A DNA stretch of 64,000 nt from a virus. Taxonomy: Duplodnaviria > Caudoviricetes. Where the stretch lies: IMG/VR virus record IMGVR_UViG_3300011337_000669, one strand, 5' to 3'. Numbering within the stretch: position 1 is the first letter of the stretch; each line of letters begins with the position of its first letter. The notes under the pieces were generated by a model. It worked only from the letters and a program-made list of their open reading frames with translations. It did not search any database and was not told where the DNA came from. Below, in pieces: positions 5,185-34,507 of the stretch. A program made the position numbers and the translations under genes.

Positions 5185-5928
5185 TCAGTCTTCCAATTTT
5201 CTCTCGATAGAAAGTTCTTTATCGAGAGCTTTATTTGACATATCAAACAATTTTTCGATGTGTCCCGACCTTCTTAAAAACTTAAAAACCAAGTTTTCGT
5301 AAGAAAGTTCACCTTCTTTTTCCAAACCTGATTTTCTATAATTTTTTAACTTTTCTTTGATTGAATCTATCAATTTAATATCATCTTCCGAATTTTCGGA
5401 TTCAATTACCTTATCAATTTTTTCAGTCCAGTTTTTGATTTTCTTTTCCAAAACTGATTTATCAATCTCGTTTTCAAACTGTTTAGGTTTTGTTACCCAC
5501 TCATCATTCATTACTGAATAAACACCTGTTGCGAAATGTGGCTCTTCATTATCTTGTGCATATAATTCGACATCATATCCAAATATTTTAATATCATGTT
5601 TGTCGTTGAATACTTGTTTCTTTAGATTATATAATTCTTTATATAACGGCGATTCATCTTCGAATTGTTGTAAATCTACAAGAATGTGTAAATCAAAATC
5701 AGAATATTCCGACCAATTAAAATTTGCTAATGAACCAGTCAAAACAATATCTTCAACAAAAACATCTTCGCCAAGATAATCAATGAATTTTTCAGCAATC
5801 TTTAATAAAGCGTTTTTCACCTTCGGAACCATCTTTGCTTTCTGTGGGTTCTCAGGATTCTCCCAAATTTTTGGATTGAGGGTTTCTTGTACTGAAAAAC
5901 TATTAAGGATTTTTTGAAAATTATTCAT
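5185..5928 (-). CDS. Nucleotidyltransferase (Pol beta superfamily)
   Basis: VLTGSLANFNWSEYSDFDLH = GS...DxD signature; downstream VELY. Confidence 0.8.
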   Translation of the reverse strand: MNNFQKILNSFSVQETLNPKIWENPENPQKAKMVPKVKNALLKIAEKFIDYLGEDVFVEDIVLTGSLANFNWSEYSDFDLHILVDLQQFEDESPLYKELYNLKKQVFNDKHDIKIFGYDVELYAQDNEEPHFATGVYSVMNDEWVTKPKQFENEIDKSVLEKKIKNWTEKIDKVIESENSEDDIKLIDSIKEKLKNYRKSGLEKEGELSYENLVFKFLRRSGHIEKLFDMSNKALDKELSIERKLED

Positions 5929-6924: not shown

Positions 6925-7102
6925 AATTTTAGTTTTTTATTTTAAGTTTATTTGTTATCTTTGTTCCAAGATTTATGCCGATAGTGATTATATGACATTA
7001 TGACAGAAAAAGATTTAATAACATTAAATATTTCCTGACAATTTGTCCAATCATTGGGATAAGAATAAAAATTGTTATTACTTTGTAAAAACTAAAAACG
7101 TT

Positions 7103-9118
7103 ATGAACGACTTAATGGACGACGAAGACAAAATGATGAGTAAAAGACAGAAGTCAGGCGGGGACAGCTCGACTCCTGTACTGGACAATTTCAGTAGAGA
7201 TTTGAATAAGCTCGCCGAAGAAGGAAAATTAGACCCCGTAATTGGAAGGGATAGAGAAATCCTGAGAATTGCACAGATTCTTTCCCGAAGAAAAAAGAAT
7301 AACCCAATCATTATTGGAGAACCTGGTTGTGGTAAGACCGCTATTGCTGAAGGTCTAGCAATGAAAATCGTAAGTGGTGAATGCCCTCGTAATTTGTTGG
7401 ATAAACGACTCGTTAATTTGGATTTGACTTCAGTTGTTGCTGGTACAAAATACCGTGGTCAATTCGAGGAAAGAATGAAAGTAATCCTTGAAGAACTTAG
7501 TGCAAACCCTAACATTATTGTATTCATTGATGAGATCCATACTCTAGTTGGTTCAGGTAATTCATCAGGAGCTATGGATGGTTCCAACATCTTCAAACCA
7601 GCATTATCTCGTGGTGAGATTCAAGTAATCGGTGCGACAACTTTGGATGAGTTCAGAAAACACATTGAAAAAGATGGAGCGTTAGAGCGTAGATTTCAAA
7701 AAGTAATTGTTGAACCATCTACTGTGATTGAAACAATTGAAATTTTGAACAACGTTCGAGATAAATACGAAACATACCACAAGGTAATTTACTCCAATGA
7801 AGTTATCGAAACTTGTGTGAAGTTGGCTGACAGATATATTACCGACCGTGAGTTTCCAGACAAAGCATTCGACATTATGGATGAAGTTGGTGCTAGAATG
7901 CAGACCGAACTTAAGGTTCCTGAGGTAATCGAAGAGTTGAAGCGTAAAGCCGCTGACCTGAAACAACAGAAAATGGATGTTGTGAAGAAACAAAACTATG
8001 AACAAGCCGCCCAACTGAGAGACAAAGAGAAAAAGTTGTTGGACAAATTGGAACAAGAAAAACAGAAGTTTGAGGAACAAATGTCCAAAGACAAACAAAA
8101 GATTAGTTTGGAAGATGTTTATGATGTAGTGTCAAACATGACTAAAATTCCTGTCAATAAAATGTCTGTGGATGATACCAAAGCGTTGTTGAATTTGGAT
8201 AAACACATCGTTGGAACTGTCATTGGTCAGGATGCTGCGGTTATCAAGGTTGCAAAATCAATCAAGAGAAACCGACTTGGCATCAAAGACCCAAATCGTC
8301 CGATTGGTTCATTCGTTTTCTTGGGTTCAACAGGTGTCGGTAAAACTCACCTCGCAAAACAACTTGCAAAAGAAATGTTTGGTAGCGAGGACGCTCTAAT
8401 CCGTGTGGATATGTCCGAATATCAAGAGAAGCATACCGTATCCAAATTGGTTGGAGCGCCTCCAGGTTATGTTGGATACGAAGAGGGTGGATTGTTAACC
8501 GAGAAAGTTAAGAACAAACCTTACTCTGTTATCTTGTTTGATGAGGTTGAGAAAGCTCACAAAGATGTATTCACCGTATTACTTCAAATCTTGGACGATG
8601 GTCACGTTACGGATAGTTTGGGTAGAAAGATTAACTTCAAGAATACCCTGATTATCTTAACATCAAATCTTGGAGTTAAAAAATTACAGGACTTCGGAAC
8701 TGGTATTGGATTCTCAAATAATACCTATAGTAACGAAGAAGCGAAGAAAGAAATCTTGATGAAAGAAATGAAGAATTTCTTTTCACCTGAATTCATCAAC
8801 CGTATCGATGACACCATCGTTTTCAATTCTCTATCTCAAGAGGATATCAAGAAAATCACAGACATCGAACTTAAGAAGTTGATGAAGCGTCTTGACGAAA
8901 TGAAGTATAAGATTACTTACGATGAATCACTTTTGAATTACCTATCAAAAATCGGATATGATGAGGTATACGGTGCAAGACCACTCAAGAGAGCGATTCA
9001 GGACAAAGTTGAAGACTTATTATCTGAAGAAGTTCTGACCGACAAAATTATCGTAGGAAAAACCTACGTGATTAAAGTCGAAGATGAAGTAGTCAAAGTA
9101 GTCAAGAAAGGTCGGTAA
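7103..9118 (+). CDS. clpC: ClpC-type AAA+ unfoldase lacking the N-terminal Clp repeat domain
   Basis: GEPGCGKT/IVFIDEIH (NBD1), UVR M-domain QNYEQAAQLRD, GSTGVGKT/ILFDEVEK (NBD2), GIGF ClpP-docking loop, YGARPLKR; likely start MNDLM at 7103. Confidence 0.92.
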   Translation: MNDLMDDEDKMMSKRQKSGGDSSTPVLDNFSRDLNKLAEEGKLDPVIGRDREILRIAQILSRRKKNNPIIIGEPGCGKTAIAEGLAMKIVSGECPRNLLDKRLVNLDLTSVVAGTKYRGQFEERMKVILEELSANPNIIVFIDEIHTLVGSGNSSGAMDGSNIFKPALSRGEIQVIGATTLDEFRKHIEKDGALERRFQKVIVEPSTVIETIEILNNVRDKYETYHKVIYSNEVIETCVKLADRYITDREFPDKAFDIMDEVGARMQTELKVPEVIEELKRKAADLKQQKMDVVKKQNYEQAAQLRDKEKKLLDKLEQEKQKFEEQMSKDKQKISLEDVYDVVSNMTKIPVNKMSVDDTKALLNLDKHIVGTVIGQDAAVIKVAKSIKRNRLGIKDPNRPIGSFVFLGSTGVGKTHLAKQLAKEMFGSEDALIRVDMSEYQEKHTVSKLVGAPPGYVGYEEGGLLTEKVKNKPYSVILFDEVEKAHKDVFTVLLQILDDGHVTDSLGRKINFKNTLIILTSNLGVKKLQDFGTGIGFSNNTYSNEEAKKEILMKEMKNFFSPEFINRIDDTIVFNSLSQEDIKKITDIELKKLMKRLDEMKYKITYDESLLNYLSKIGYDEVYGARPLKRAIQDKVEDLLSEEVLTDKIIVGKTYVIKVEDEVVKVVKKGR

Positions 9119-11736: not shown

Positions 11737-12150
11737 GGGGTAGAAAGGTATAGATTGGCATTGTTGGAAATAAGTGGCACGTAGTCAGAATTCATCTATG
11801 ACTTAAATCTATGGTGAAGAAAGTAACCGGCAATACTCTTGCTAAGATGGCTGCTCTAGGTTTAACTAGAGAAGCGTCTGTTGTAACTGCTTAATTAGTA
11901 GATATAACGTCGGGTCGAATGGGCATATAACCTCGGAACAGAAGCCCTCCAAGGTGGATACCACCCGAAGCGTATCAAAAGGTCTCGTTCAGAGGGCTAC
12001 CTTATTACAAGTGAACTCGACACAGTTATTGGTGACAATGTCAAAATAGAAACCAAATATTTCGGAAGGTATGAAAAACCTTGACCTAAACGTGTAGGCA
12101 TTTATTGTCAAGATGAGCAAGACCGCAGTTCGAATCTGCGCTACTCCACC
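11737..12150 (+). ncRNA. ssrA: tmRNA
   Basis: Acceptor GGGGTAG/CTACTCC with G3:U wobble, discriminator A, T arm GCAG-TTCGAAT-CTGC, internal tag ORF 11829-11894 after TAACC resume context, upstream TACATTTG promoter. Confidence 0.93.
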
Positions 12151-12156
12151 TTCAAC

Positions 12157-12190: not shown

Positions 12191-13385
12191 AGTTTCCTTT
12201 AGACGGAAATCTTGTCCATCCATTTACCCATATAGGTTTATCTAATTCAGGTATTATCACATCAACTTCCTTATTACTTTTTGATAGCACCAATGTTTTA
12301 AGTTGTTCACTTGTTAGAATTGTAGTTGCTCTACTAATGAAATTCAGATTTGGATTGAATGTCCCGACCGAATTGTTTTCAAAGACAGATACACCATCTT
12401 TAACAAATTGAGTTGTTTCATTACTTTCCAAACTCAATCCACCTTTCATCCAACCCCAAACTACGCTATTCTTCATTGTGAATTGGGTCGATCTTCTGAA
12501 TCTCAAACCTAAATTGTGGTTTGCTAATGCTGTGGATACATTTGGTCCAACCAAAATCATATTGTAAAGTTTTGGGTGTGTGTAAGGTTGTGCTGAGGAT
12601 CCTGTTCCATCATTATCACATTCCACACCATTTCCAGCGTCACCACTATCCACAAATTGTGGGTCTCTTTTTGCAACTCCGTTTGTAATCATTCCTGTAT
12701 AACCAAAGTCAAAGTCGAAATCATCATCTGCGGTTGCGTATGCGTAAAGATTTTTACCATTTACAGTTCCACCAAAGAATTCAAATGCGTCGTCGTTAGC
12801 ATATATTGTTTGGATGTTTTCAAGAATTGTTCCGTTTCCTACACCTCCGAGAGTCAATGCGTTTATTTCAGAGTTTGGTAACGCTGCGATTCCTGCGTAT
12901 TCGATTCTAACGTATCTCATTACACCACTATTGTCAGAATCATTTGTTCCTCCATAAGGTCTTCCGATTCCACCTTCGATTGTAGGTTCAGAAGAACGGT
13001 TTGTATTCGCTCTACCTAAAATTACTATACCACCCCAATCACCAGGAGATCGTTGTCCCTCGGGTCTCCCTGACGTAAATACGATAGGTTTGGTTGGGGT
13101 TCCTTCAGCAATTATTTGAGAACCTCTTTCAATACATAACGCTCCTTTCTCAGCAACATCAGAAACTATGGTAGTTCCAGGTTGGATAATAAGTTTTGCT
13201 CCATCGGTCACATAAACATATCCTTTGAGAGTCCAAACTTTGTCAGAGGTCAAAGTTATTGTGGTATTGATGTTTCCTGTCAATGTAGTTGTTTGTGGAA
13301 CATTGATTGGTGCTTCGTCACCTCCAAGTTCTGTGTTACAACTGTAGAGTCCTAATGCGATTAGAATTGTTAATAGTTTTTTCAT
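12189..13385 (-). CDS. Bacteroidota-type surface lipoprotein (beta-helix-like), TonB-receptor associated
   Basis: Lipobox LGLYSC; repeated DNSG/DDAFEFFGG/DDDFDFD/GNGVECDN motifs typical of lipoproteins encoded beside TBDRs; overlaps the TBDR stop. Confidence 0.75.
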   Translation of the reverse strand: MKKLLTILIALGLYSCNTELGGDEAPINVPQTTTLTGNINTTITLTSDKVWTLKGYVYVTDGAKLIIQPGTTIVSDVAEKGALCIERGSQIIAEGTPTKPIVFTSGRPEGQRSPGDWGGIVILGRANTNRSSEPTIEGGIGRPYGGTNDSDNSGVMRYVRIEYAGIAALPNSEINALTLGGVGNGTILENIQTIYANDDAFEFFGGTVNGKNLYAYATADDDFDFDFGYTGMITNGVAKRDPQFVDSGDAGNGVECDNDGTGSSAQPYTHPKLYNMILVGPNVSTALANHNLGLRFRRSTQFTMKNSVVWGWMKGGLSLESNETTQFVKDGVSVFENNSVGTFNPNLNFISRATTILTSEQLKTLVLSKSNKEVDVIIPELDKPIWVNGWTRFPSKGN

Positions 13386-15868
13386 AAATTAAGGTTTAAG
13401 GATAATGAGATTATTGTTTCATTATTTGTGTTTATTAAATTACGGTTTGCTATTTTTTGATAGTTTATTGATGGTTGTGCGAAAATATCTGAGATTGCCA
13501 ACTTCAATTCTCCCTTTGGAAGTTTGTGTAAAAAAGTAATATCCAAAACATCTCTACTATTTTCGAATATGTCAGGATATCCCTGAAATCCGACAGCAGA
13601 AATCCTTTCTCCAATTCTATTGTAGGTTAGATTAAGTGTATTATTTTTCTTATTGATGTTTACACCTGAATTAACAACATAGTTTGATTGTCCTTGTAAT
13701 TGTCTTTTTACACCATTCACATCAACCTCAGAATTCATGACTGAAGCGTTTGTGTAAAAATCGAACCATCCATTTATTCTTTTTCTCACTTCCATTTCAA
13801 CACCATATACAATCGCAGATTCAGGATTTGCATAAGTTAAAAGTAAGTTGGATGGAACTGACCCATCGGCAACAACTTGTTCGATTGGGTTTACGAAATT
13901 TTTACCAAAGAATGAGAGAGAAATGTTTTCTGTGTTTGAAGGATATAACTCGTATTTCAAATCAACATTGTATATGTCGGTTTTTTTCAAGTTGGAGTTT
14001 CCTAATATTTGTGCGTTTCTAACAAAATCATAATATGCAAAGTTTGCGACTTCTCTGAACTCTGGTCTTGCCAAGGTCTTACTCAAAGAGAATCTATATT
14101 TTGTTTTCTCCAAGTTATATGAAAGGTTCAATGATGGAAGAATGTCCAAATATGTTCTATCAACATTTACCTTTTGACCACTGAAATCTGCGGTTTCAAC
14201 ATCAAACAAGTTGTATTCACCTCTTACACCTGTATTGATTTTCCATTTTCCAATTTCGTTCTCATACATCGTATAAAGATTACCCAAATCAAAGTCAGCG
14301 GTGTATCTATCTGTATTGTTGGTTATTTCATCCAATAAATCCGTTGTTTGATATCTGAAAACTCTTGCGTTAAACCCTCGAACCTTTTTCAAATAACCTC
14401 CACCAACTTCAAATTTACCCAAATCTTTTTTCAAGTTTCCGTTAAATGAATTCTCATCCATAACACTCCAAAATCTGTAAGTATCTCTCCATGCTGTCGC
14501 GAATGGTTCATTTACGCCCAATGATTTGGTGATTGGGTTAATTCTATAATCAGGTTGTTCTCTGAAGACGTAGTTATATCCGAAATTGAAATCAAAAGTT
14601 TCAATATTACCATCAACCTGTGAGTTGATTACCACGTTATTGATATGGTTTGACGCATTACTCAACACATCTTGAACATTGTCAAAGTTCTGACCTTCTC
14701 TTGTCAGGTATGAACTTTCTTTTTGGAAGTTTGCCAATGTTTTCCAACTATATTTGTTTTTACCCAAATAAGTTAAGTTCAATAATCCATTTGTGGAGAA
14801 TCTCTGTGTGTATAATCTATCGTTATAATCGTATGCCAGTTCTGTGGAAGATTGATAATCCTTTCTCTCAATGTTGTTGAGAGTATATGAGTTTCTTACT
14901 GTTGAACTGAATAATGAATTGAATTTGTTTTTCACATAACCAAATGAAACTCCGCCATTTAAGTTTGGTATGGATTGAAACCCATTTTCAGTTGGGGTTC
15001 CTATTTGTTTGGTGAATAGTCGTTTGTCTCCATTACCACTAATTCTGTATTTGTAAGTGGAAGGAAAGGTTGACGGAAATGGGATCGATTCCACCAGTTT
15101 GAAGCCTCGGAAAGTCGAGACAGACCCTATTCCCGTCCCGAAGCTTACGTCCAAAAAATTGTCGGACACCTCCTTTGTCGATACTTGAACCAATCCTCCA
15201 CTCCAATCACCAGGTTGGTTTGCCGAAAATGATTTGGAAACCATAATATTATCAATCAAAGAAGTTGGGATAATATCAAATGAGAATGCTCGTCTATCAG
15301 GTTCTGTGGAGGGTAAAGGTGTTTGATTCAATAATGCCGAATTATATCTATCGGCAAGTCCTCGAACCAAAACAAATTTGTCATTCTGAATTGTGACACC
15401 ACTTACTCGTTTCAATGCGTCACCCAAATTTCTATCGGGGGTCTTCTTTATGAATTCTATTGATAATCCATCGGATACCACAATATTATTTCGTATAGAT
15501 TTCATAACCGATATGTCTGTGACTTTTTGTGCGGTTCCTCGAACTAAAACTTCGTTTAACTCCGTATCGGTCGCCTCAAAAATAATATCCAAGTTAGTAA
15601 CGGTGGTTACAGTAATGGTCGTTACGAAATCTTTGTAACCAATATAAGTCCCTTTAACTTCGTAAGTTCCTTCGTTGAGAGAAACATTATACTTTGCGTT
15701 TTCATCAGAAATTGTTGTGAATTTATTACCACTAACATCTTGGAAAGTTACGTGAGCAAAATAAATGTCTTCTGTTTTTGATTTTGTTGTTCCATTGATG
15801 GTTATTTGTTTTTGTTGTGAAAACACCGTTAATGGAAATAAGAGCAAAAAAAATAGATTCTTAATCAT
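13382..15868 (-). CDS. TonB-dependent outer-membrane receptor
   Basis: Signal peptide MIKNLFFLLLFPLTVFSQ (start 15868), CarboxypepD_reg-like N-domain, ELNEVLV TonB-box region, plug DALKRVSGVT..FVLVRGLADRYN, barrel motifs TLARPEFRE and NLDLKYELY-like, alternating C-terminal strand. Confidence 0.9.
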   Translation of the reverse strand: MIKNLFFLLLFPLTVFSQQKQITINGTTKSKTEDIYFAHVTFQDVSGNKFTTISDENAKYNVSLNEGTYEVKGTYIGYKDFVTTITVTTVTNLDIIFEATDTELNEVLVRGTAQKVTDISVMKSIRNNIVVSDGLSIEFIKKTPDRNLGDALKRVSGVTIQNDKFVLVRGLADRYNSALLNQTPLPSTEPDRRAFSFDIIPTSLIDNIMVSKSFSANQPGDWSGGLVQVSTKEVSDNFLDVSFGTGIGSVSTFRGFKLVESIPFPSTFPSTYKYRISGNGDKRLFTKQIGTPTENGFQSIPNLNGGVSFGYVKNKFNSLFSSTVRNSYTLNNIERKDYQSSTELAYDYNDRLYTQRFSTNGLLNLTYLGKNKYSWKTLANFQKESSYLTREGQNFDNVQDVLSNASNHINNVVINSQVDGNIETFDFNFGYNYVFREQPDYRINPITKSLGVNEPFATAWRDTYRFWSVMDENSFNGNLKKDLGKFEVGGGYLKKVRGFNARVFRYQTTDLLDEITNNTDRYTADFDLGNLYTMYENEIGKWKINTGVRGEYNLFDVETADFSGQKVNVDRTYLDILPSLNLSYNLEKTKYRFSLSKTLARPEFREVANFAYYDFVRNAQILGNSNLKKTDIYNVDLKYELYPSNTENISLSFFGKNFVNPIEQVVADGSVPSNLLLTYANPESAIVYGVEMEVRKRINGWFDFYTNASVMNSEVDVNGVKRQLQGQSNYVVNSGVNINKKNNTLNLTYNRIGERISAVGFQGYPDIFENSRDVLDITFLHKLPKGELKLAISDIFAQPSINYQKIANRNLINTNNETIISLSLNLNL

Positions 15869-16026
15869 GTCTTGAATTTTATCAACAATAATTAGGAGGA
15901 ACCCTCTCTCAAACCTGAATTTCAACATTATCAAATGGCTATGTTCTTGTTAAGTGAAAAAACTTTTGATAATTTTTGAATTACGTAAAATATTAGTATT
16001 TTTGTATCACATAGACATCAACCGAT

Positions 16027-18763: not shown

Positions 18764-19369
18764 ATGCGAGTTTTATTTTTGGATAATGATGGAGTAATTT
18801 GCCTCAGTAGTAATTGGGGTTCCCGCCACAAAAAACAAGATAAGTGGGGTGGGAAAAAATTGTCTATGGATATAACATCAATTCCTGTTGAATGTCGTTT
18901 TGATAATTTCGATAAAAAAGCGGTAAAAGTTCTAAATCAAATATTAGAAACCACAGGTGCTGAAATCGTAGTTAGTTCTGATTGGAGATTACACGGTACC
19001 TTAGAAGAGTTGGGAGAATACTACACATCTCAAGGTATCATCAAAAAACCAATCGGATTCACCGAAGTATTCCATTACACAAATTGGTTAGAAGACGGTC
19101 GTGTCCCATCTGATTTTGAATGGAATAGGACCGATGGCCGAGAACAAGAAAGACATTTCGAAATTAAAGATTATCTAAAATCACATCCCGAAATTACACA
19201 TTGGGTAGCCATTGATGACCTTCACATGGGTATTCATGTCACAAACAGCTCTTATGGCCCATTTGATAGAGATTGGGGGTTAGAACACTTCGTATGGACA
19301 CCGAGAGATTGGGAAGGAATAAAACAAAGTGGTATTAAACAAAAAATAATAAAACATTTATCATGCTAG
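18764..19369 (+). CDS. HAD phosphatase, Swiss-army-knife RNA-repair type
   Basis: FLDNDGVI, IVVSSDWR, WVAIDDL motifs. Confidence 0.8.
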   Translation: MRVLFLDNDGVICLSSNWGSRHKKQDKWGGKKLSMDITSIPVECRFDNFDKKAVKVLNQILETTGAEIVVSSDWRLHGTLEELGEYYTSQGIIKKPIGFTEVFHYTNWLEDGRVPSDFEWNRTDGREQERHFEIKDYLKSHPEITHWVAIDDLHMGIHVTNSSYGPFDRDWGLEHFVWTPRDWEGIKQSGIKQKIIKHLSC

Positions 19370-24510: not shown

Positions 24511-24797
24511 TTAAGCCACTTGGGTATCTGACCATTGATAAGGTGCCAGGACGGGTTTCTAACCCGCTCTTCAGTTAATCACTGCGTGCTGCCATTTACA
24601 CCACCTGACTAATTTTTAGATTTCTAAAACTCATCCCTGACGGGGTAAAGAAACTCCATCTTATTTGTTTTTTGCGTAGTCAGGACAGGATTCGAACCTG
24701 TAATAGAAAGAGTACGCTATCTCGCTGCGTGACCAGTTACCTATCTATGTCAGTAACGCTAAACTCTGTGTCTACCAATTCCACCACCTGACTATTA

Positions 24798-24917
24798 TTA
24801 TTTCAGTAATTTTGACCAAATCTTAATTACCATGTCTCTTTGTGGAGATGGTTGTAATTTAGACCACCTATCAATCCACATTTGAATTTCATCTTTACTA
24901 ATAACTTTTTTACTCAT
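24798..24917 (-). CDS. 39-aa micro-ORF between tRNA-like elements
   Basis: MSKKVISKDEIQMWIDRWSKLQPSPQRDMVIKIWSKLLK*, fills the gap exactly. Confidence 0.5.
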   Translation of the reverse strand: MSKKVISKDEIQMWIDRWSKLQPSPQRDMVIKIWSKLLK

Positions 24918-25327
24918 AACTTTTGATTTTAAGTAGTCAGGACAGGACTCGAACCCGTATTAATTTACATATTGAATGGGTGTCAACTTAATGTCTTCCA
25001 ATCAATCATCAATCTACCATTAGCTTTCGCCACCTGACTAATTTTTAGATTTCTAAAACTCATCCCTAACGGGGTAAAGAAACTCCATCTTATTTGTTTT
25101 TTGCGTAGTCAGGACAGGACTCGAACCTGTATTATCACGATGCGTAGAATTAAGGGAGCTTATTCCTTAATTGTGATATTACCTACATAGCGTACACCAA
25201 TTTCGCCACCTGACTTAAAAAACACTTTAGTCGCGGGGAACCCATCTTCCGCTTCTTACTAGATTCTTGTAGCTTACTTACTTAAGTTCATACCGTTACT
25301 ACTAGGGAACCCAACATTGTGTTTTTG

Positions 25328-25386
25328 TGGAGTGGAGGGAGTCGAACCCTCTGCCTGTACCTGTACGGCTTTAAACAAACCACTCC
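25328..25386 (-). ncRNA. 59-nt D-armless tRNA-like domain
   Basis: GGAGTGG/CCACTCC + A, T arm GAGGG-TTCGACT-CCCTC, short central stem GCC-GTAC..GTAC-GGC. Confidence 0.65.
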
Positions 25387-25833
25387 TAAGCCTGCAGAGC
25401 TGTTACAACTATCGCATTAATCTCATATGCTATTTCCATAGGTTAGAAAATGTGAGTCTCAAACCAACATTATATAGTTGCCTATTCTTTTTCAAACTTA
25501 GTTTTAGTTGCTTTCCATGCGCAAGGCTCATAACTAATTTCCAGTATCGCCACGTGGAGGCGTTTGAATGATACCGCTGGGCTTCGTTATTCTCCTTTCG
25601 GATATTGTTTCATACCTTACTCCGGCCTTATCTCGAGTTGACCGTTTGTGGCTTCTTATACAATTTATTTTAATTCAGCATCCCCTACTGCCCGTTTGGA
25701 TGCGTTTATGAATTTATTAGTCTATTCCTAATAGGCAACTCTGGAATCACCAGAATATCTGTCCGGTCTGTTCACATTATCGTAACCGCCTGTTACGTTA
25801 AGAACCGAAGCATGTGGCCGGCAATCATTACAT
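25387..25833 (-). ncRNA. Candidate large structured ncRNA (~450 nt)
   Basis: No long ORF on the transcribed strand; 11-bp long-range helix (25476-25486 with 25730-25740); hairpins TCC-GAAA-GGA, CGTAAC/GTTACG, GCATCC/GGATGC, CTGG/CCAG, TTAGTT/AACTAA. Confidence 0.6.
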
Positions 25834-25980
25834 TGTAGTCAGGACAGGATTCGAACCTGTAAGAGAGTTACTATCCTTCACTCTCCCGTTTAGTTATTAT
25901 CAGACTTTTAATGAGGTCGTATCTCGTGTTGAACTGTTTTACCTAAATAGCGTCTCTCCATTGCGCGACCTGACTGTATT

Positions 25981-26118
25981 TTAGATATAAATTTGAATTA
26001 TTAAGAAAGGAATTTCCAATGAAATATATCTACGATTTGGTATACTAGAAGTCCCCCATGCTATCATCAATCCTATTTGATTGGAAGTCATTAGTCTTCC
26101 CCATTTATATTCTTTCAT
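25981..26118 (-). CDS. 45-aa micro-ORF, copy 1 of a duplicated cassette
   Basis: MKEYKWGRLMTSNQIGLMIAWGTSSIPNRRYISLEIPFLIIQIYI*; near-identical copy at 26888-27025. Confidence 0.6.
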   Translation of the reverse strand: MKEYKWGRLMTSNQIGLMIAWGTSSIPNRRYISLEIPFLIIQIYI

Positions 26119-26241
26119 ATATTTTTTATTTAAGTAGTCAGGACAGGATTCGAACCTGTGATAGACGCTCCTTAGAGTCCGCTATCTTGGCAGCCAATTC
26201 CGCCACCTGACTTTATTCTATTTATTAAGTTATCGTTTTGC

Positions 26242-26469
26242 TTATTTATGAGTTATGCGATAATTGCCTTTAAACTTTGAGTATAAGATTTCGTTGTAAT
26301 GTCTATTACATTCGTACTGATATACAAATTCACCATTGTTTTTACACCACATAACGAAATCTATTGCTTCTTTTTGTAGCAACATATCACTAACATTAGA
26401 TAACCACAATTGCTTGTTGTATTCATCTATTGTGGTTTGTGCTTTTTTATAATCCTCTTCTGTTATCAT
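26242..26469 (-). CDS. Hypothetical protein between tRNA-like elements
   Basis: 75-aa ORF. Confidence 0.5.
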   Translation of the reverse strand: MITEEDYKKAQTTIDEYNKQLWLSNVSDMLLQKEAIDFVMWCKNNGEFVYQYECNRHYNEILYSKFKGNYRITHK

Positions 26470-26887
26470 AATTTTTTTATTAAATTATCAATTGTGTTTA
26501 TCTGTAACTGTTGTAGTCAGGACAGGATTCGAACCTGTAAAATAGTTTAACAAACTATTGGTGTGCACTACCTTTAAGGTTTCTAAGTCTTACAAGTTAT
26601 TATGCTTTACTTCCCGAGCGTCTACCAATTCCGCCACCTGACTATTGTTTTAAAAGATTAACCATTCAGGAGCTTCACCTGCTTTTGATAGGACTGATAC
26701 CTCCAAGTTAATGGTCAATATCGAGCTTTTTACTTTAGTTAATCTTTTGTAGTCAGGACAGGATTCGAACCTGTTACAATAGATTCAATTGGTTTCCCAT
26801 CTTTTGCAGGTTATTACACTATCTCAGATTTTCGCCCTACTCATAGTTTATTATACCGCTATTGTACTTCCGCCACCTGACTATTTT

Positions 26888-27025
26888 TTAGATATAAATT
26901 TGAATTATTAAGAAAGGGATTTCCAATGAAATATATCTACGATTTGGTATACTAGAAGTCCCCCATGCTATCATCAATCCTATTTGATTGGAAGTCATTA
27001 ATCTTCCCCATTTATACTCTTTCAT
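26888..27025 (-). CDS. 45-aa micro-ORF, copy 2
   Basis: Differs from copy 1 by a few substitutions with frame retained. Confidence 0.6.
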   Translation of the reverse strand: MKEYKWGRLMTSNQIGLMIAWGTSSIPNRRYISLEIPFLIIQIYI

Positions 27026-27036
27026 ATATTTTTTAT

Positions 27037-28149
27037 TTATTTCTCCAAAACGTACTTCATCATCTCTTGCATCTTGATAATCATAAGTTCCATTTCGTCC
27101 TTACTAAGATACAACCTACCGTTTAATGTTTTATCATCCAACTCCCTGACTTCAACTATGATACCATCAAACATCTCAGTTGGATAAATTTCAACATTCT
27201 GTTCTTCAGTTGCAATAACTGTTTTGTTCCAAACTTTATTTTTCATAACTTATTTCTTTTTGAATTGTTCAAACCATTGTTCTAATGTCATCTTCTTTCC
27301 TGCTAACAAATCTTCTGTATGCTTATAAAGTATATTTAATACTTCTTCCTCACTATACATTCTTTCTTCTTTAGGTTTTTCTTTTGGAAGAAACATATAT
27401 GTTTCTTTTGGAATGATTATTTTGTAACCAAACTTTTCAAACCCGTATGAATTAACAGAAATTTCAGAGCCATATTCATTTAATGCAACCAATTCCACTT
27501 CAACTTCCTCACAACTTGAGTTCTTAACAAACCATTGTAAAAACTCATCATCAATAGCTTGAACACCATATTTGATTAAGTCTCGGTCTGTTGTTAGGAC
27601 TACTGGGTTAGAAGCACTTTCTAAATCTTTAGACATCAAATATGACACTTGAACTAATCTACCATATTTAGTGATAACATAATCACTATCGTTAATATCT
27701 TCATCAGAAGTGATGTAGATATTTACTTCATCATCACAAACTGAATTTTTATACTCACTTGTAATCGTCAAATTATCTTCAATTAAATGCAGCCTACTTG
27801 GTTTATCTGTTGGTAATATGTGAATGTTTTTCATGGCTTTTACAGTTTAAGTTCCTTTCTTATTACTCCACTAATGTCCGAAAAAGATTTTAGAATTCCA
27901 AGAGGTTTATCAATTATTTATCTTTTGAAGCCAGGACAGGACTCGAACCTGTAATTATTACTTACGGAAAATATCCCATTTATTTAATAAAGTTTGAGGA
28001 GTCCAATTATATTTCCTATTTTCAACTAACATCTTTGCGACATTTTCATATAATTCGTGGTATAATTGTTTATAATCAATATCACTAACATCAGCCATAT
28101 CCAATTTGGGTGTCTCTGCTTTATTAAAATCCTTTTCTTCTTTTTTCAT
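27037..28149 (-). CDS. Three small hypothetical genes (27037-27246, 27250-27834, 27958-28149)
   Basis: ORF track; co-oriented with the tRNA island. Confidence 0.55.
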
Positions 28150-28504
28150 TTAATCTTAATTTTAATTGTAGTCAGGACAGGAATCGAACCTGTAAATTAT
28201 TAAGTGTTTCATTCTATAAATCTCTCTCACCATTACGTTTAGAGTAAGTTTTTAATTCATTATAGAGAACTACACAGGTTTTAACGTTTGCCATTCCGCC
28301 ACCTGACTAAATGTTTTTAGTTACTTTATCAACACTTCTCCAAGAACCACCTCGGCCAATTTATATCAATTTCACTTAGGTTACGTCATGATTCTACTGG
28401 TTAGGCGTCCTCAATCTAAACCTGTTTGTAGTCAGGGCCGGACTCGAACCGGATAAACAACCATTTCTGGATTCGGGAACCAATCCCTCATTACGTCCAC
28501 CTGA

Positions 28505-28717
28505 CTATTTTAATATTTCATTTTTTCTACCACTAACAGTTTCAACTAACCAAGCAGTCTCAATTAACTCTAAATAAGATATTGGTTTTCCTCTATCAGT
28601 ATCACAAATAACTTTTTGTCTTTGTTCACAGTAATATCCTTCGGAAGTTAATCGAAATTCCTCACCATCAGACATTCTAACCAAATCACCTTTTCTCCAA
28701 GCACTTAACACATTCAT
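28505..28717 (-). CDS. Hypothetical protein between tRNA-like elements
   Basis: 70-aa ORF; a further 44-aa ORF (28831-28965, MKWIIRQF...CQICGRWWKL) fills the next gap. Confidence 0.5.
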   Translation of the reverse strand: MNVLSAWRKGDLVRMSDGEEFRLTSEGYYCEQRQKVICDTDRGKPISYLELIETAWLVETVSGRKNEILK

Positions 28718-29099
28718 ATTTTTTATTTAAGTTGTTTGTAGCCAGGACAGGACTCGAACCTGTAACTTTTGTCTTTTGGTTCCGAAAATCGGATTACTCA
28801 CCAACACGCTACCCTTGCGTCACCTGACTATTATAATTTCCACCACCTACCACATATTTGACATTCTTGTGGTCCGTAAGCTTTATGCATTTTATGTTTA
28901 TCTAAAACAAAGTCATGTACAAATAAACACCGTACGTTTCCAAATTGTCTAATAATCCATTTCATATATTTTTCATTTGTAGTCAGGGCCGGACTCGAAC
29001 CGGATAAACAACCTTTTCAGGACTCAGGAACCAATCCCTCATTACGTCCACCTGACTGTGTTGATACAAATATGGTAAACTATTTTCGATATGCCAAAT

Positions 29100-33835: not shown

Positions 33836-34507
33836 ATGAACATCGGACAAGAATTTCAAAACTATTACGTAAATCACTTGGGTAAAGGGTCATTGGACCT
33901 TTACAACTTCTCAAATCAAATTCAATCATCAATGACTCCATATATTCTTGAAGAAAGAGAAATGAGAGTAACTCAAATGGATATTTTCTCAAGATTACTT
34001 CGTGATCGTATATTATGGGCAGCAGGTCCCGTAGACGATAGAATGTCCACAGTTGTCCAAGCACAACTCATGTTTCTTGATAATACTGATAAATCAGATA
34101 TCACAATTCATTTGGATAGTGGTGGTGGAAGCATAAAATCGGGATTAAGTATGATTGATGTTATGAATTATATCAAATGTGATGTTAGAACAATTAATGT
34201 TGGTATGTGCGCATCTATGGGGGCAGTATTACTAGGAGCAGGAACAAAGGGGAAGAGAAGTTCTCTCAAATTTTCGAGAACTATGATACATCAGTCATCA
34301 TCAGGGTTTCAAGGAACTTACGCAGACGCAAAGGTAAATTTCGAAGAATGGACTAAAATTAACGATACAATCTTCAATTTGTTGGGAGAATATTGTGGAA
34401 AGTCGTCAGACCAAATAAAAATTGATGCCGACAGAGATTTATGGTTCTCATCACAGGAAACTCTAGATTACGGATTAATTGATGAAATTGTGACAAAAAG
34501 AAAATAA
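33836..34507 (+). CDS. clpP: ClpP protease proteolytic subunit
   Basis: DIFSRLLRDRI, DSGGGSI, GMCASMGAVLL (Ser), MIHQ (His), DRDLWF (Asp). Confidence 0.95.
   Translation: MNIGQEFQNYYVNHLGKGSLDLYNFSNQIQSSMTPYILEEREMRVTQMDIFSRLLRDRILWAAGPVDDRMSTVVQAQLMFLDNTDKSDITIHLDSGGGSIKSGLSMIDVMNYIKCDVRTINVGMCASMGAVLLGAGTKGKRSSLKFSRTMIHQSSSGFQGTYADAKVNFEEWTKINDTIFNLLGEYCGKSSDQIKIDADRDLWFSSQETLDYGLIDEIVTKRK

What the first reader, a model, noticed from the sequence alone, without database searches (positions are those of the whole stretch)
25387..25833. Candidate ~450-nt highly structured ncRNA bracketed by two tRNA-like units
Seen: ORF-free on the minus strand, richer in GC than flanks, with an 11-bp helix spanning ~250 nt, a GNRA-capped hairpin and several nested stems; begins right after the 3' end of element 25836-25975 and ends at the 59-nt tRNA-like domain. 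Established: GOLLD and ROOL are large ncRNAs found among phage tRNA genes. Inference: a member of such a class or a new one; I cannot assign it by eye.
Basis: partly seen in the sequence, partly recalled or inferred. Interest (0 to 1): 0.7.

Follow-up and report, generated by a model that had tools for sequence, protein, structure and literature searches.

The report
Ribozyme-punctuated RNA modules, phage tRNA array
The "450-nt RNA" is a string of four separately conserved folded RNA modules inside a freshwater phage's tRNA-gene cluster; one is a self-cutting HDV-like (theta-type) ribozyme that should trim the end of a previously undescribed small RNA, which suggests what some "orphan" phage ribozymes are for.

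Summary
There is no minus-strand ORF, GC is 40.5% against 33.7% for the window, and there is a GAAA-capped hairpin and a 10-bp helix spanning 241 nt. Folding energy is unremarkable; the evidence for structure is covariation in about 30 related phage loci.

The stretch is not one RNA and is not GOLLD or ROOL. On the minus strand it holds:
- **W** (25833-25737), a junction RNA.
- **X** (25714-25576), a roughly 140-nt RNA with no Rfam 15 match.
- **A theta-type HDV-like ribozyme** (25575-25491). It has P1, P1.1, P2 and P3, a G1-U pair, an invariant J4/2 C at 25501 and an extra 39-nt P4.
- **Y** (25486-25387), a cloverleaf-like RNA always fused to the 59-nt mini-tRNA (25386-25328).

Each module occurs without the others elsewhere. 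P4-less relatives of the ribozyme are nearly identical to an "isolated, function unknown" entry in the published theta-ribozyme catalogue.

Best reading: a polycistronic RNA operon cut by RNase P/Z at the tRNA-like units and by the ribozyme between 25576 and 25575, which gives X its 3' end. What X, Y and W do is unknown. Metatranscriptome contigs hold relatives of W, X and the ribozyme. This scan noted ribozyme-linked RNAs in phage tRNA arrays before, on other DNA.

The parts
25835..25975 (-). Upstream tRNA-like 'scaffold' unit, included as context. It has the acceptor AGUCAGG/CCUGACU, a T arm and a large insert. Its 3' end should set the 5' end of W.
   Evidence: The motif occurs 12 times in the window against 0 in shuffles. 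Units are listed and folded. Rfam tRNA gives a weak hit of 16.9 bits.
25737..25833 (-). Module W. It has a conserved 5' UGAUUNCCGGC, a closing CCGG/CCGG helix (25821-25818 with 25766-25763) and an inner helix and hairpin. A conserved hairpin follows at 25756-25739.
   Evidence: 12 loci match by nhmmer. RNAalifold on 9 sequences gives 14 pairs, 8 of them with compensatory changes. In L520, L549, L556, L503 and L567, W is not followed by X; in L520, L549 and L556 a tRNA follows it.
25715..25736 (-). Hairpin and linker specific to this window (CUAUU-AGG-AAUAG). It is absent from L133 and L248.
   Evidence: Alignments. A 67-nt stretch here is replaced by 24 nt in an RNA contig of a relative (table 5).
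25576..25714 (-). Module X, a conserved ~140-nt structured RNA.
- H1 is a two-part hairpin with loop AAACGGGCAGUAGG.
- H2 is CGGUC/GGCCG, with an apical loop carrying the palindrome CUCGAG.
- H3 is a GAAA-capped hairpin (25602-25593), which is optional in relatives.
- The invariant 3' tail is AACGAAGCYC; it may form a pseudoknot with the H1 loop.
   Evidence: About 22 loci. Covariation counts: 91.5% paired, 7 compensatory pairs, 0 of 500 shuffles as high. CM R2 finds one copy in the window and one in each homologous locus searched. There is no Rfam match.
25575..25576 (-). Predicted self-cleavage site, between C25576 (last nt of X) and G25575 (G1 of the ribozyme).
   Evidence: This is the position 5' of P1, with the invariant G1-U pair. 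The rule comes from HDV-like and theta ribozymes (PMC10879173). RNA contigs end at 25579 and 25577, and an adapter junction sits at 25582; this is only a weak hint.
25491..25575 (-). Theta-type HDV-like self-cleaving ribozyme with a P4 insert.
- P1: 25575-25570 with 25548-25543.
- P2: 25568-25562 with 25497-25491.
- P3: GCC/GGC, with L3 UCCACGU.
- P1.1: CC (L3) with GG (25542-25541).
- P4: 25537-25532 with 25509-25504.
- J4/2: CUAA, with the catalytic C at 25501.
   Evidence: Alignment A1 and pair counts: P1 is 100% paired with 4 covarying pairs, P2 has 4, P3 has 1, and P1.1 and C88 are invariant. Weak Rfam hits go to HDV-F-prausnitzii and CPEB3. It is the only hit of a generic theta descriptor in the 64 kb. 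Its part-by-part layout equals the published theta strings.
25387..25486 (-). Module Y.
- Closing helix CAACUAU/AUAGUUG encloses three hairpins; the first has a T-loop-like UUYGANN loop.
- There is a possible pseudoknot between AUAGG and the loop CCUAU.
- A fourth hairpin has the palindromic loop CUGCAG, invariant in all 8 sequences.
   Evidence: Alignment A4 and counts. The MFE fold recovers the cloverleaf. In L487 and L489, Y follows a tRNA-like unit instead of the ribozyme.
25328..25386 (-). Mini tRNA-like domain fused to Y in all 8 loci. It has a 6-bp acceptor stem, a D-arm replacement linker, a short hairpin with no anticodon loop and a canonical T arm.
   Evidence: The acceptor, the hairpin and the T arm all covary. 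The Rfam tmRNA model ends match at 17.3 bits, below the 47-bit threshold. ARAGORN calls no tRNA here. The MFE z-score is -2.3.
25567..25829 (-). Long-range helix 'P0' (25829-25819 with 25576-25567). It would sequester nt -1 to +9 of the ribozyme, including all of the P1 5' strand, so it excludes the active fold.
   Evidence: It appears in the MFE fold and in duplexes for the window, L133 and L248. It is also kept in L497, L504 and L574. There are only two haplotypes and one compensatory pair, and 26 of 300 shuffles do as well.

Best explanation
**What it is.** Region 25328-25833 (minus strand) is a section of a long phage "RNA operon", the tRNA-like array. It encodes several independent structured RNAs set free by RNA processing, not one large RNA.

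**Order on the RNA:** tRNA-like unit, W, X, ribozyme, Y, mini-tRNA.

**Proposed steps**
1. The array is transcribed as one precursor. No minus-strand terminator-like site was found between 24300 and 30400.
2. RNase Z-type and RNase P-type cuts at the tRNA-shaped units free the 5' end of W-X and act at the mini-tRNA.
3. The theta-type HDV-like ribozyme folds into its double pseudoknot and cuts its own 5' edge between C25576 and G25575.
   - X (or W-X) is left with a defined 2',3'-cyclic-phosphate 3' end just after its invariant AACGAAGCCC tail.
   - The ribozyme stays as a compact 5'-OH head on the Y plus mini-tRNA piece.
4. X, Y-mini-tRNA and W then act as separate stable small RNAs.
   - The apical loop of X always carries a palindrome. 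The equivalent loop of the short relatives carries an unrelated palindrome, and Y has an invariant CUGCAG loop. This suggests loop-loop self-pairing (homodimers).
5. In the loci that also carry W, a 10-bp alternative helix between the 5' end of W and the ribozyme's P1 strand may delay or gate cleavage.

**Shown:** the modules, their folds (by covariation), their independence, the ribozyme's family traits, and RNA-library contigs of relatives.

**Inferred:** the cuts, the end chemistry, dimerisation and gating.

**Unknown:** the cellular targets of X, Y and W.
For: **Modularity**
- X plus a P4-less ribozyme sits between two tRNA-like units in L043, L124 and L128; in the other short-form loci a tRNA-like unit or another sequence precedes X and the downstream neighbour varies.
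- In L135, X is followed directly by an ordinary tRNA instead of the ribozyme, so RNase P would make the same 3' end.
- Y plus mini-tRNA follows a tRNA-like unit in L487 and L489.
- In L520, L549 and L556, W is followed by an ordinary tRNA, with no X.

**Ribozyme**
- P1 is 6 bp, 100% paired, with 4 compensatory pairs.
- G1-U is invariant.
- P2 has completely different sequences in the two subtypes yet stays paired.
- P3 is 3 bp.
- P1.1 (CC/GG) is invariant.
- J4/2 is C-Y-A-A with an invariant C.
- The relatives' ribozyme is nearly identical to isolated theta no. 1977.
- It is the single descriptor hit in the window and the single CM hit.

**Folds:** covariation in X, Y plus mini-tRNA, and W.

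**Non-coding:** no conserved ORF.

**Transcription unit:** no minus-strand terminator-like site in the array.

**Expression**
- Metatranscriptome contigs from three studies carry relatives of W, X and the ribozyme at 85-99% identity.
- Some of these contigs include sequencing adapters, and contig ends fall within 2-6 nt of the predicted cut.

**Palindromic loops:** CUCGAG, CUUAAG and CUAUAG in the long form of X, AUCGGCCGAU in the short form, and CUGCAG in Y.
Against: - Self-cleavage was not tested.
- RNA contigs that bridge the cut site exist (25548-25611). The contig ends coincide with a spot that varies between strains, so they may be assembly breaks rather than RNA ends.
- RNA libraries can hold DNA.
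- Only about 22 X loci, 8 Y loci and 12 W loci were found, many of them close relatives. The shuffle control therefore overstates significance.
- The pseudoknots in X and Y show no, or only partial, compensatory change.
- Palindromic loops are suggestive only: three variants in the long form.
- The long-range helix would block the ribozyme. If it dominates, the uncleaved RNA could be the functional form.
- No function can be assigned to X, Y or W.
Confidence: 0.7

Rival explanations
1. One large (~450-510 nt) functional RNA. W, X, the ribozyme-like fold, Y and the mini-tRNA act together as a single ornate RNA in the manner of ROOL or GOLLD. The long-range helix closes the W-X domain and keeps the HDV-like fold from forming, or makes it a regulated switch.
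For: - The 10-bp helix 25829-25819 / 25576-25567 is present in every locus that has W, X and the ribozyme together, with one compensatory pair.
- RNA contigs bridging the cut site exist.
- The order X, ribozyme, Y, mini-tRNA is kept in 6 loci.
Against: - Every module occurs without the others in other phages.
- The ribozyme keeps all catalytic hallmarks, including the invariant C. That is not expected of a dead structural element.
- The 5' strand of the long helix is conserved in W even where no ribozyme is present.
- 26 of 300 shuffles give as good a duplex.
- There is no Rfam hit to any large RNA.
Confidence: 0.12
2. Purely cis-acting processing and insulation elements. The modules have no trans function. 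They only fold the precursor so that the neighbouring tRNA-like units are cut correctly, or they stabilise the transcript. The ribozyme trims a spacer.
For: - All modules lie only in tRNA or tRNA-like arrays.
- Theta ribozymes are proposed to serve tRNA 3' maturation (PMC10879173).
Against: - The ribozyme's cut site is 139-260 nt from the upstream tRNA-like 3' end, not within the +/-5 nt reported for tRNA-associated theta ribozymes.
- X keeps invariant loops and an invariant tail, and keeps its 3' boundary whether a ribozyme or a tRNA follows.
- RNA contigs that hold X are recorded at higher depth than those that hold the ribozyme in one run. Contig depth is a poor measure, so this counts for little.
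Confidence: 0.12
3. Remnants or cargo of a mobile RNA/DNA element. The X-ribozyme or W cassettes spread between phage tRNA arrays as selfish insertions, and the ribozyme serves the element as in R2-type retroelements.
For: - The cassettes appear at different places and next to different neighbours in different phages.
- HDV-like ribozymes do serve retrotransposons (general knowledge).
Against: - No reverse transcriptase, transposase or repeat boundaries lie next to them. The neighbours are small ORFs and tRNA-like units.
- There is a single copy per genome stretch searched.
Confidence: 0.05

Closest known systems
Theta ribozymes / minimal HDV-like ribozymes of phages (Kienbeck et al. 2024, PMC10879173)
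   Same: - The same double-pseudoknot layout and the same conserved letters: P3 RCC, L3 U-CC-NCGY, GG after P1, J4/2 C-U-A-A, and G1-U.
- The P4-less relatives use the common theta L4 'ATAACCAA' and nearly equal catalogue entry no. 1977.
- They lie in phage tRNA gene clusters.
   Different: - The window's copy carries a 39-nt P4 hairpin, whereas theta and minimal ribozymes are defined as lacking P4.
- Its cut site abuts a conserved non-tRNA RNA (X), not a tRNA 3' end.
- The host phage is from fresh water, not the gut, and shows no sign of TAG recoding in this window.
GOLLD and ROOL (large ornate RNAs often next to phage tRNAs; PMC12286853)
   Same: Structured non-coding RNA in phage tRNA neighbourhoods. 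Self-complementary loops hint at self-assembly, as shown for GOLLD and ROOL by cryo-EM.
   Different: - There is no match to their Rfam models even at E up to 10.
- The modules here are 60-140 nt each, not 600-800 nt.
- They are separable from one another.
MALAT1/mascRNA-type 3' end formation by a tRNA-like structure
   Same: A tRNA-shaped element with no anticodon sits at the 3' end of a structured non-coding RNA, where RNase P or RNase Z could act.
   Different: That system is eukaryotic and nuclear. Here the mini-tRNA is kept with Y in all 8 loci, and whether it is cut off or stays attached is unknown.
tmRNA tRNA-like domain
   Same: An acceptor stem plus T arm with the D arm replaced by a linker. 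The ends of the Rfam tmRNA model align at 17.3 bits.
   Different: - The score is far below the 47-bit threshold.
- The acceptor closes locally.
- There is no G3-U70, no tag reading frame and no pseudoknot ring.
- A complete tmRNA lies elsewhere, at 11737-12151.
Phage/bacterial Y RNAs (YrlA, Rfam RF02553), reported by this scan in other phage tRNA arrays
   Same: Small RNAs with tRNA-like parts, interleaved with tRNA genes in large phages.
   Different: No YrlA hit at E up to 10. No Ro60-type stem-bulge was recognised, and no TROVE-domain protein was found among the window ORFs scanned.

Membership tests
HDV-like ribozymes | Nested double pseudoknot: P1, P1.1, P2 and P3 (with or without P4) | tested here: met
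   17 sequences. P1, P3 and P1.1 are 100% paired and P2 is 86%. There are 9 compensatory pairs in P1, P2 and P3. Slid controls reach at most 45%.
HDV-like ribozymes | Cleavage-site G1 forming a G-U wobble at the base of P1 | tested here: met
   Columns 14:46 are G-U in 17 of 17 sequences.
HDV-like ribozymes | Catalytic cytosine at the first position of J4/2 | tested here: met
   Column 88 is an invariant C in the context A-A-C-Y-A-A, directly before the P2 3' strand. It is C25501 in the window.
HDV-like ribozymes | Mg2+-dependent self-scission, abolished by changing the catalytic C to U | not testable with these tools
   RNA contig ends near 25576|25575 are only a weak hint.
HDV-like ribozymes | Match to an Rfam HDV-family model at its gathering score | tested here: not met
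   HDV-F-prausnitzii scores 18.3 bits against a gathering score of 44. CPEB3 scores 16.5 against 35. Those models describe other lineages and cannot model pseudoknots.
Theta ribozymes (minimal, phage) | Conserved letters of the published motif: RCC | T | CC | NCGY | GGY ... GG ... C-T-A-A | tested here: met
   The window reads GCC|T|CC|ACGT|GGC ... GG ... CTAA. Compare the published strings. It is the single descriptor hit in 64 kb.
Theta ribozymes (minimal, phage) | No P4 domain (short L4) | tested here: not met
   The window, L123, L132, L133, L248 and L486 carry a 37-39-nt P4 hairpin. Ten relatives (L043 and others) have the 8-nt L4 ATAACCAA and do meet the feature.
Theta ribozymes (tRNA-associated subgroup) | Cut site within +/-5 nt of a tRNA 3' end | tested here: not met
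   The cut site is 139 nt from the 5' end of X and about 260 nt from the tRNA-like 3' end at 25835-25836. X is not tRNA-shaped.
GOLLD / ROOL / OLE / RNase P / group I and II introns | Match to the family's Rfam covariance model | tested here: not met
   No hit at gathering score, nor at E up to 10 on 4.5 kb and on 521 nt.
tmRNA | tRNA-like domain closed by the RNA's two ends, plus a tag reading frame and pseudoknots; Rfam score of 47 bits or more | tested here: not met
   17.3 bits, with only the model ends aligned and 304 model positions skipped. A complete tmRNA lies at 11737-12151.
tRNA | Cloverleaf with a 7-nt anticodon loop, recognised by ARAGORN or Rfam RF00005 | tested here: not met
   Neither tool calls 25328-25386 or Y. 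The middle hairpin has a 2-4-nt loop.
YrlA / Y RNA | Match to RF02553; Ro60-binding stem | tested here: not met
   No hit at E up to 10. The phage genome outside the window could not be searched for Rsr.

The most novel reading that the evidence does not exclude
X, Y-mini-tRNA and W are three undescribed families of trans-acting phage small RNAs.
- The phage would express them through a natural "tRNA-scaffold plus ribozyme" cassette system.
- X and Y would work as kissing-loop homodimers.
- Release of X would be gated by a W-ribozyme alternative helix, that is, a regulated theta ribozyme.
- If so, the thousands of "isolated" theta ribozymes would be 3'-end makers for a hidden repertoire of phage non-coding RNAs.
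Probability: 0.3. Interest if true: 0.8.

Novelty: new variant of a known kind. Interest (0 to 1): 0.62.

Why it matters
Kienbeck et al. list 7,704 "isolated" theta ribozymes with no proposed role. Here one such lineage is tied in every ribozyme-bearing locus found to a conserved, covarying, non-tRNA RNA whose 3' end it should make. In L135 a tRNA replaces the ribozyme at the same boundary. That gives a testable function, ribozyme-made ends for phage small RNAs.

It also shows that phage tRNA arrays carry a shuffled set of small structured RNAs absent from Rfam 15: X, Y with its mini-tRNA, and W.

Two further points would interest RNA structural biology and phage-host studies, and tool building for RNA expression cassettes:
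- The recurrent palindromic apical loops, which hint at self-assembly.
- The P4-bearing sister of a "minimal" ribozyme lineage.

Tried and rejected
- **Whole genome:** none is held for this window.
- **blastn against 50,697 phage records:** the array gave no match.
- **Folding energy:** MFE z-scores are not significant for the whole region or for most parts, so folding energy is no evidence here.
- **Too-loose patterns:**
Only L248 and L315 were true.
  - AACGAAGCCC N{16,30} GCCTCC likewise.
- **Covariance-model searches:** the ribozyme model and the X model found no further copies in the window and no new homologous loci among those searched.
- **Y RNA lead from earlier scan notes:** no YrlA hit.
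- **TAG recoding, expected from the theta-ribozyme paper:** ORFs do not lengthen with TAG=Q in this window.
- **RNA contigs:**
  - The four runs laid gave no cover of Y or the mini-tRNA (25308-25469). Their phages resemble L248, which has no Y, so this says nothing either way.
  - The 'joint' 25221->25833 has a 22-nt side within the repeated tRNA-like ends and was discarded.
- **X fold:** the long-range alternative UUCAUA/UAUGAA in X was rejected in favour of the local helix, because column 10 covaries perfectly with the local partner.
- **X helix AUUGU/ACAAU from the MFE fold** is not kept in relatives.
- **Scan's own notes:** sequence look-ups found no relatives of X or Y elsewhere.
Full report
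**Setting.**
- The window is AT-rich (33.7% GC) phage DNA. It encodes:
  - a T4-type large terminase N-terminal domain (3-1115);
  - ClpP and a ClpB-like ATPase;
  - thymidylate synthase;
  - a DNA methylase;
  - a HAD domain of the 'Swiss Army Knife' RNA-repair type.
- Rfam finds a complete tmRNA at 11737-12151, and there is a large minus-strand tRNA island at 22.8-33.2 kb.
- DNA runs that hold the stretch are riverine, lake and marine metagenomes.
- No whole genome is held, and no catalogued phage record matches the array.
- Between 24.5 and 29.1 kb there are 12 tRNA-shaped units. They share one acceptor stem and T arm but differ in their inserts.
- The finding lies between one such unit (25975-25835) and a 59-nt mini-tRNA (25386-25328).

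**Checking the observation.**
- Thermodynamic folding is not unusual. The z-score is -0.75 for the 511-nt stretch, and most parts are near zero.
- Any claim of structure therefore has to rest on comparison with relatives.

**Homologues.**
- A scan of viral contigs for the shared tRNA-like 3' motif, followed by scans for motifs found step by step, gave the following:
  - about 22 loci with the central module X;
  - 8 non-identical loci with Y and the mini-tRNA (L489 is identical to L487);
  - 12 loci with W.
- Two more X loci came from metagenomes.
- The alignments show at once that conservation is modular:
  - A short form has a 105-nt X plus a 53-nt ribozyme. In L043, L124 and L128 it sits between two tRNA-like units.
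  - In L135, X is followed directly by a normal tRNA.
  - In L248, L497 and L504 the order is tRNA, W, X, ribozyme, tRNA.
  - In L487 and L489, Y plus mini-tRNA follows a tRNA-like unit.
  - In L520, L549 and L556, W is followed by an ordinary tRNA, with no X.
- The order X, ribozyme, Y, mini-tRNA is found in six loci (the window, L122, L123, L132, L133 and L486). Only the window and L133 also have W in front of X.

**The ribozyme (25575-25491).**
- Rfam gave only weak hints: HDV-F-prausnitzii at 18.3 bits and CPEB3 at 16.5 bits on a relative. The alignments nevertheless traced the HDV fold.
- On 17 sequences (alignment A1):
  - P1 (6 bp) is paired in every sequence, with compensatory changes at four positions and an invariant G1-U.
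  - P2 has unrelated sequences in the two subtypes (GUAGAU/AUCUAC against UUCAAAC/GUUUGAA) but stays paired.
  - P3 is 3 bp with one compensatory change.
  - The CC of L3 and the GG after P1 (P1.1) never vary.
  - J4/2 reads A-A-C-Y-A-A with an invariant C (C25501).
- Slid controls reach at most 45% paired, against 92.8% for the proposed fold.
- The supplement of the theta-ribozyme paper prints its ribozymes cut into the same parts. [quoted passage not shown] - The short-form relatives use the common theta L4 'ATAACCAA'. They nearly equal entry no. 1977 of Supplementary Data File 2, which is the list of non-tRNA-associated ('isolated') theta ribozymes whose function the authors leave open.
- A generic descriptor written from these parts hits the 64-kb window once, at 25491-25575. 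A covariance model also finds this one copy.
- The ribozyme is therefore a member of the HDV-like class and a sister of the theta lineage. It differs in having a 39-nt P4 hairpin, itself covarying (UUAGUU/AACUAA, UGGUU/AACCA, UUAGAC/GUCUAA). It also differs in what lies at its cut site.

**X (25714-25576).**
- The ribozyme's cut site abuts the invariant tail AACGAAGCYC plus 2-4 variable nucleotides.
- X has the following parts:
  - a two-part hairpin H1 with the conserved loop AA(A/G)YGGGY(GA)AGUAGG;
  - a hairpin H2;
  - an optional GAAA-capped hairpin H3, which is absent in the short form and enlarged in L072, L122 and L486;
  - the tail, which could pair with the H1 loop (GGGY/GCYC), though this varies only by wobble changes.
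- On 8 long-form sequences, 91.5% of cells pair. Seven pairs show compensatory change, and 0 of 500 shuffles reach this.
- The H2 loop presents CUCGAG, CUUAAG or CUAUAG, all of them palindromes. The corresponding loop of the short form and of L248 presents the unrelated palindromes AUCGGCCGAU or CGGCCG. Keeping self-complementarity while the letters change is what a loop-loop homodimer would require. With three variants this is only a lead.
- X has no Rfam match, is single-copy and carries no conserved ORF.
- X keeps the same 3' boundary whether a ribozyme or a tRNA (L135) follows. I therefore read it as a stand-alone RNA whose 3' end is made by whichever processing signal sits there.

**Y and the mini-tRNA (25486-25328).**
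- On 8 sequences, 87.4% of cells pair and 24 of 48 pairs show compensatory change. Slid controls reach at most 41%.
- In Y, a 7-bp closing helix encloses three hairpins:
  - The first has a T-loop-like sequence (GUUGG-UUCGAUC-CCAAC in L132).
  - The second hairpin's loop can pair with the 5' leader (AUAGG/CCUAU; UGG/CCA in others); this is only partly supported.
- A fourth hairpin shows the invariant palindromic loop CUGCAG.
- The mini-tRNA has the following:
  - a 6-bp acceptor stem;
  - a linker in place of the D arm;
  - a short hairpin without an anticodon loop;
  - a canonical T arm;
  - a 3' end reading A-C-(A/U)-A.
- All three of its helices covary. It aligns to the two ends of the tmRNA model at 17.3 bits (threshold 47), which only says that it is tRNA-like.

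**W (25833-25737).**
- W is a junction RNA. RNAalifold on 9 sequences predicts 14 pairs, 8 of them with compensatory changes. A conserved hairpin follows it.
- Its conserved 5' end (A-N-UGAUU-R-CCG) can pair with nt -1 to +9 of the ribozyme.
- The pairing is kept in all six loci that have W, X and the ribozyme together. These fall into only two haplotypes with one compensatory pair.
- The W strand is conserved even where there is no ribozyme, and 26 of 300 shuffles give as good a duplex.
- The helix excludes P1, so it could delay or gate cleavage. I rate this as possible, not shown.

**Expression.**
- Four metatranscriptomes from four studies were laid on 25200-26000.
- Three of them hold short, deep contigs of relatives (85-99% identity) of the tRNA-like unit, X and the ribozyme. 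W itself (25780-25834) is covered in one run, and a second run carries a W-like stretch just upstream of X. Some contigs have sequencing adapters assembled onto their ends.
- The contig ends near the predicted cut, between 25576 and 25575, are these:
  - In one run, a contig of X ends at 25579 and a contig of the ribozyme starts at 25577.
  - In another run, an adapter is joined at 25582.
- Bridging contigs (25548-25611) also exist. The 2-4 nt before the cut vary between strains, which alone can break contigs. RNA libraries can also hold DNA.
- I count this as showing that the family is probably transcribed, and as a weak hint for the cut.

**Mechanism and comparison.**
- The best-supported account is a polycistronic RNA operon punctuated by tRNA-shaped units (RNase P/Z) and by one theta-type ribozyme. 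No terminator-like site on the minus strand interrupts the array.
- The ribozyme would leave X with a 2',3'-cyclic phosphate end. It would remain as a 5'-OH head on Y, which is tailed by the mini-tRNA. That is a piece protected at both ends, or one trimmed further by RNase P, as with MALAT1 and mascRNA.
- What X, Y and W do is not known.
- The rivals are listed with their tests: one large RNA, purely cis-acting spacers, and mobile cassettes.

**Novelty.**
- The ribozyme class is known, and its short-form relatives are already catalogued as orphans.
- New here are the P4-bearing variant, its fixed partnership with a conserved non-tRNA RNA, and three RNA families absent from Rfam 15.
- Earlier notes of this scan describe ribozyme-linked and tRNA-mimic RNAs in the tRNA arrays of other phages. 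The general theme is therefore recurring.

Noticed in passing
window 25216-25320 (-): Module Z is a further conserved structured stretch between the mini-tRNA and the next tRNA-like unit. It is shared with L133 and L488, and its hairpin covaries: GCGG/CCGC, GUGAG/CUCAC and GCGGU/ACCGC. An RNA contig of a relative covers part of it.
   Followed up: partly
window 24543-29057 (-): There are 12 tRNA-shaped units with one shared acceptor stem and T arm, and unrelated inserts of 79-141 nt. ARAGORN calls none of them, and Rfam tRNA matches only four of them (24677-24793, 26135-26212, 26519-26573 and 28169-28308). The same 23-nt 3' motif occurs in more than 120 viral contigs, often several times per contig.
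   Followed up: partly
L135:5634-5905 (-): Here X is followed after 5 nt by an ordinary tRNA (GGGAAUGUAGCUCAGUUGG...) in place of the ribozyme. It is a natural swap of the 3'-end-making device.
   Followed up: partly
L520, L549, L556 (the same contigs as L123 / L122 for two of them): Module W is followed by an ordinary tRNA, far from the X locus of the same phage. W is therefore an independent RNA gene.
   Followed up: partly
window 18764-19369 (+) and 5185-5928 (-): One protein has the HAD domain of 'Swiss Army Knife' RNA-repair proteins (E 9.5e-21). Another is a weak nucleotidyltransferase-fold match. Both are possible partners for healing or tailing processed RNA ends.
   Followed up: no
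window 11737-12151 (+): A complete phage-encoded tmRNA (63.8 bits). ClpP (33836-34507) and a ClpB/ClpC-like ATPase (7043-9118) lie in the same window.
   Followed up: no
window 13382-15934 (-): An 850-aa protein with CarboxypepD_reg, Plug and outer-membrane beta-barrel domains, which is the TonB-dependent-receptor layout typical of Bacteroidota, encoded in a phage genome.
   Followed up: no
L248:10860-10950 and L497, L504: These ribozyme copies have L3 UCCUCGU or UCCUCGC, the same loop letters as the genomic HDV ribozyme, and P3 ACC/GGU.
   Followed up: no
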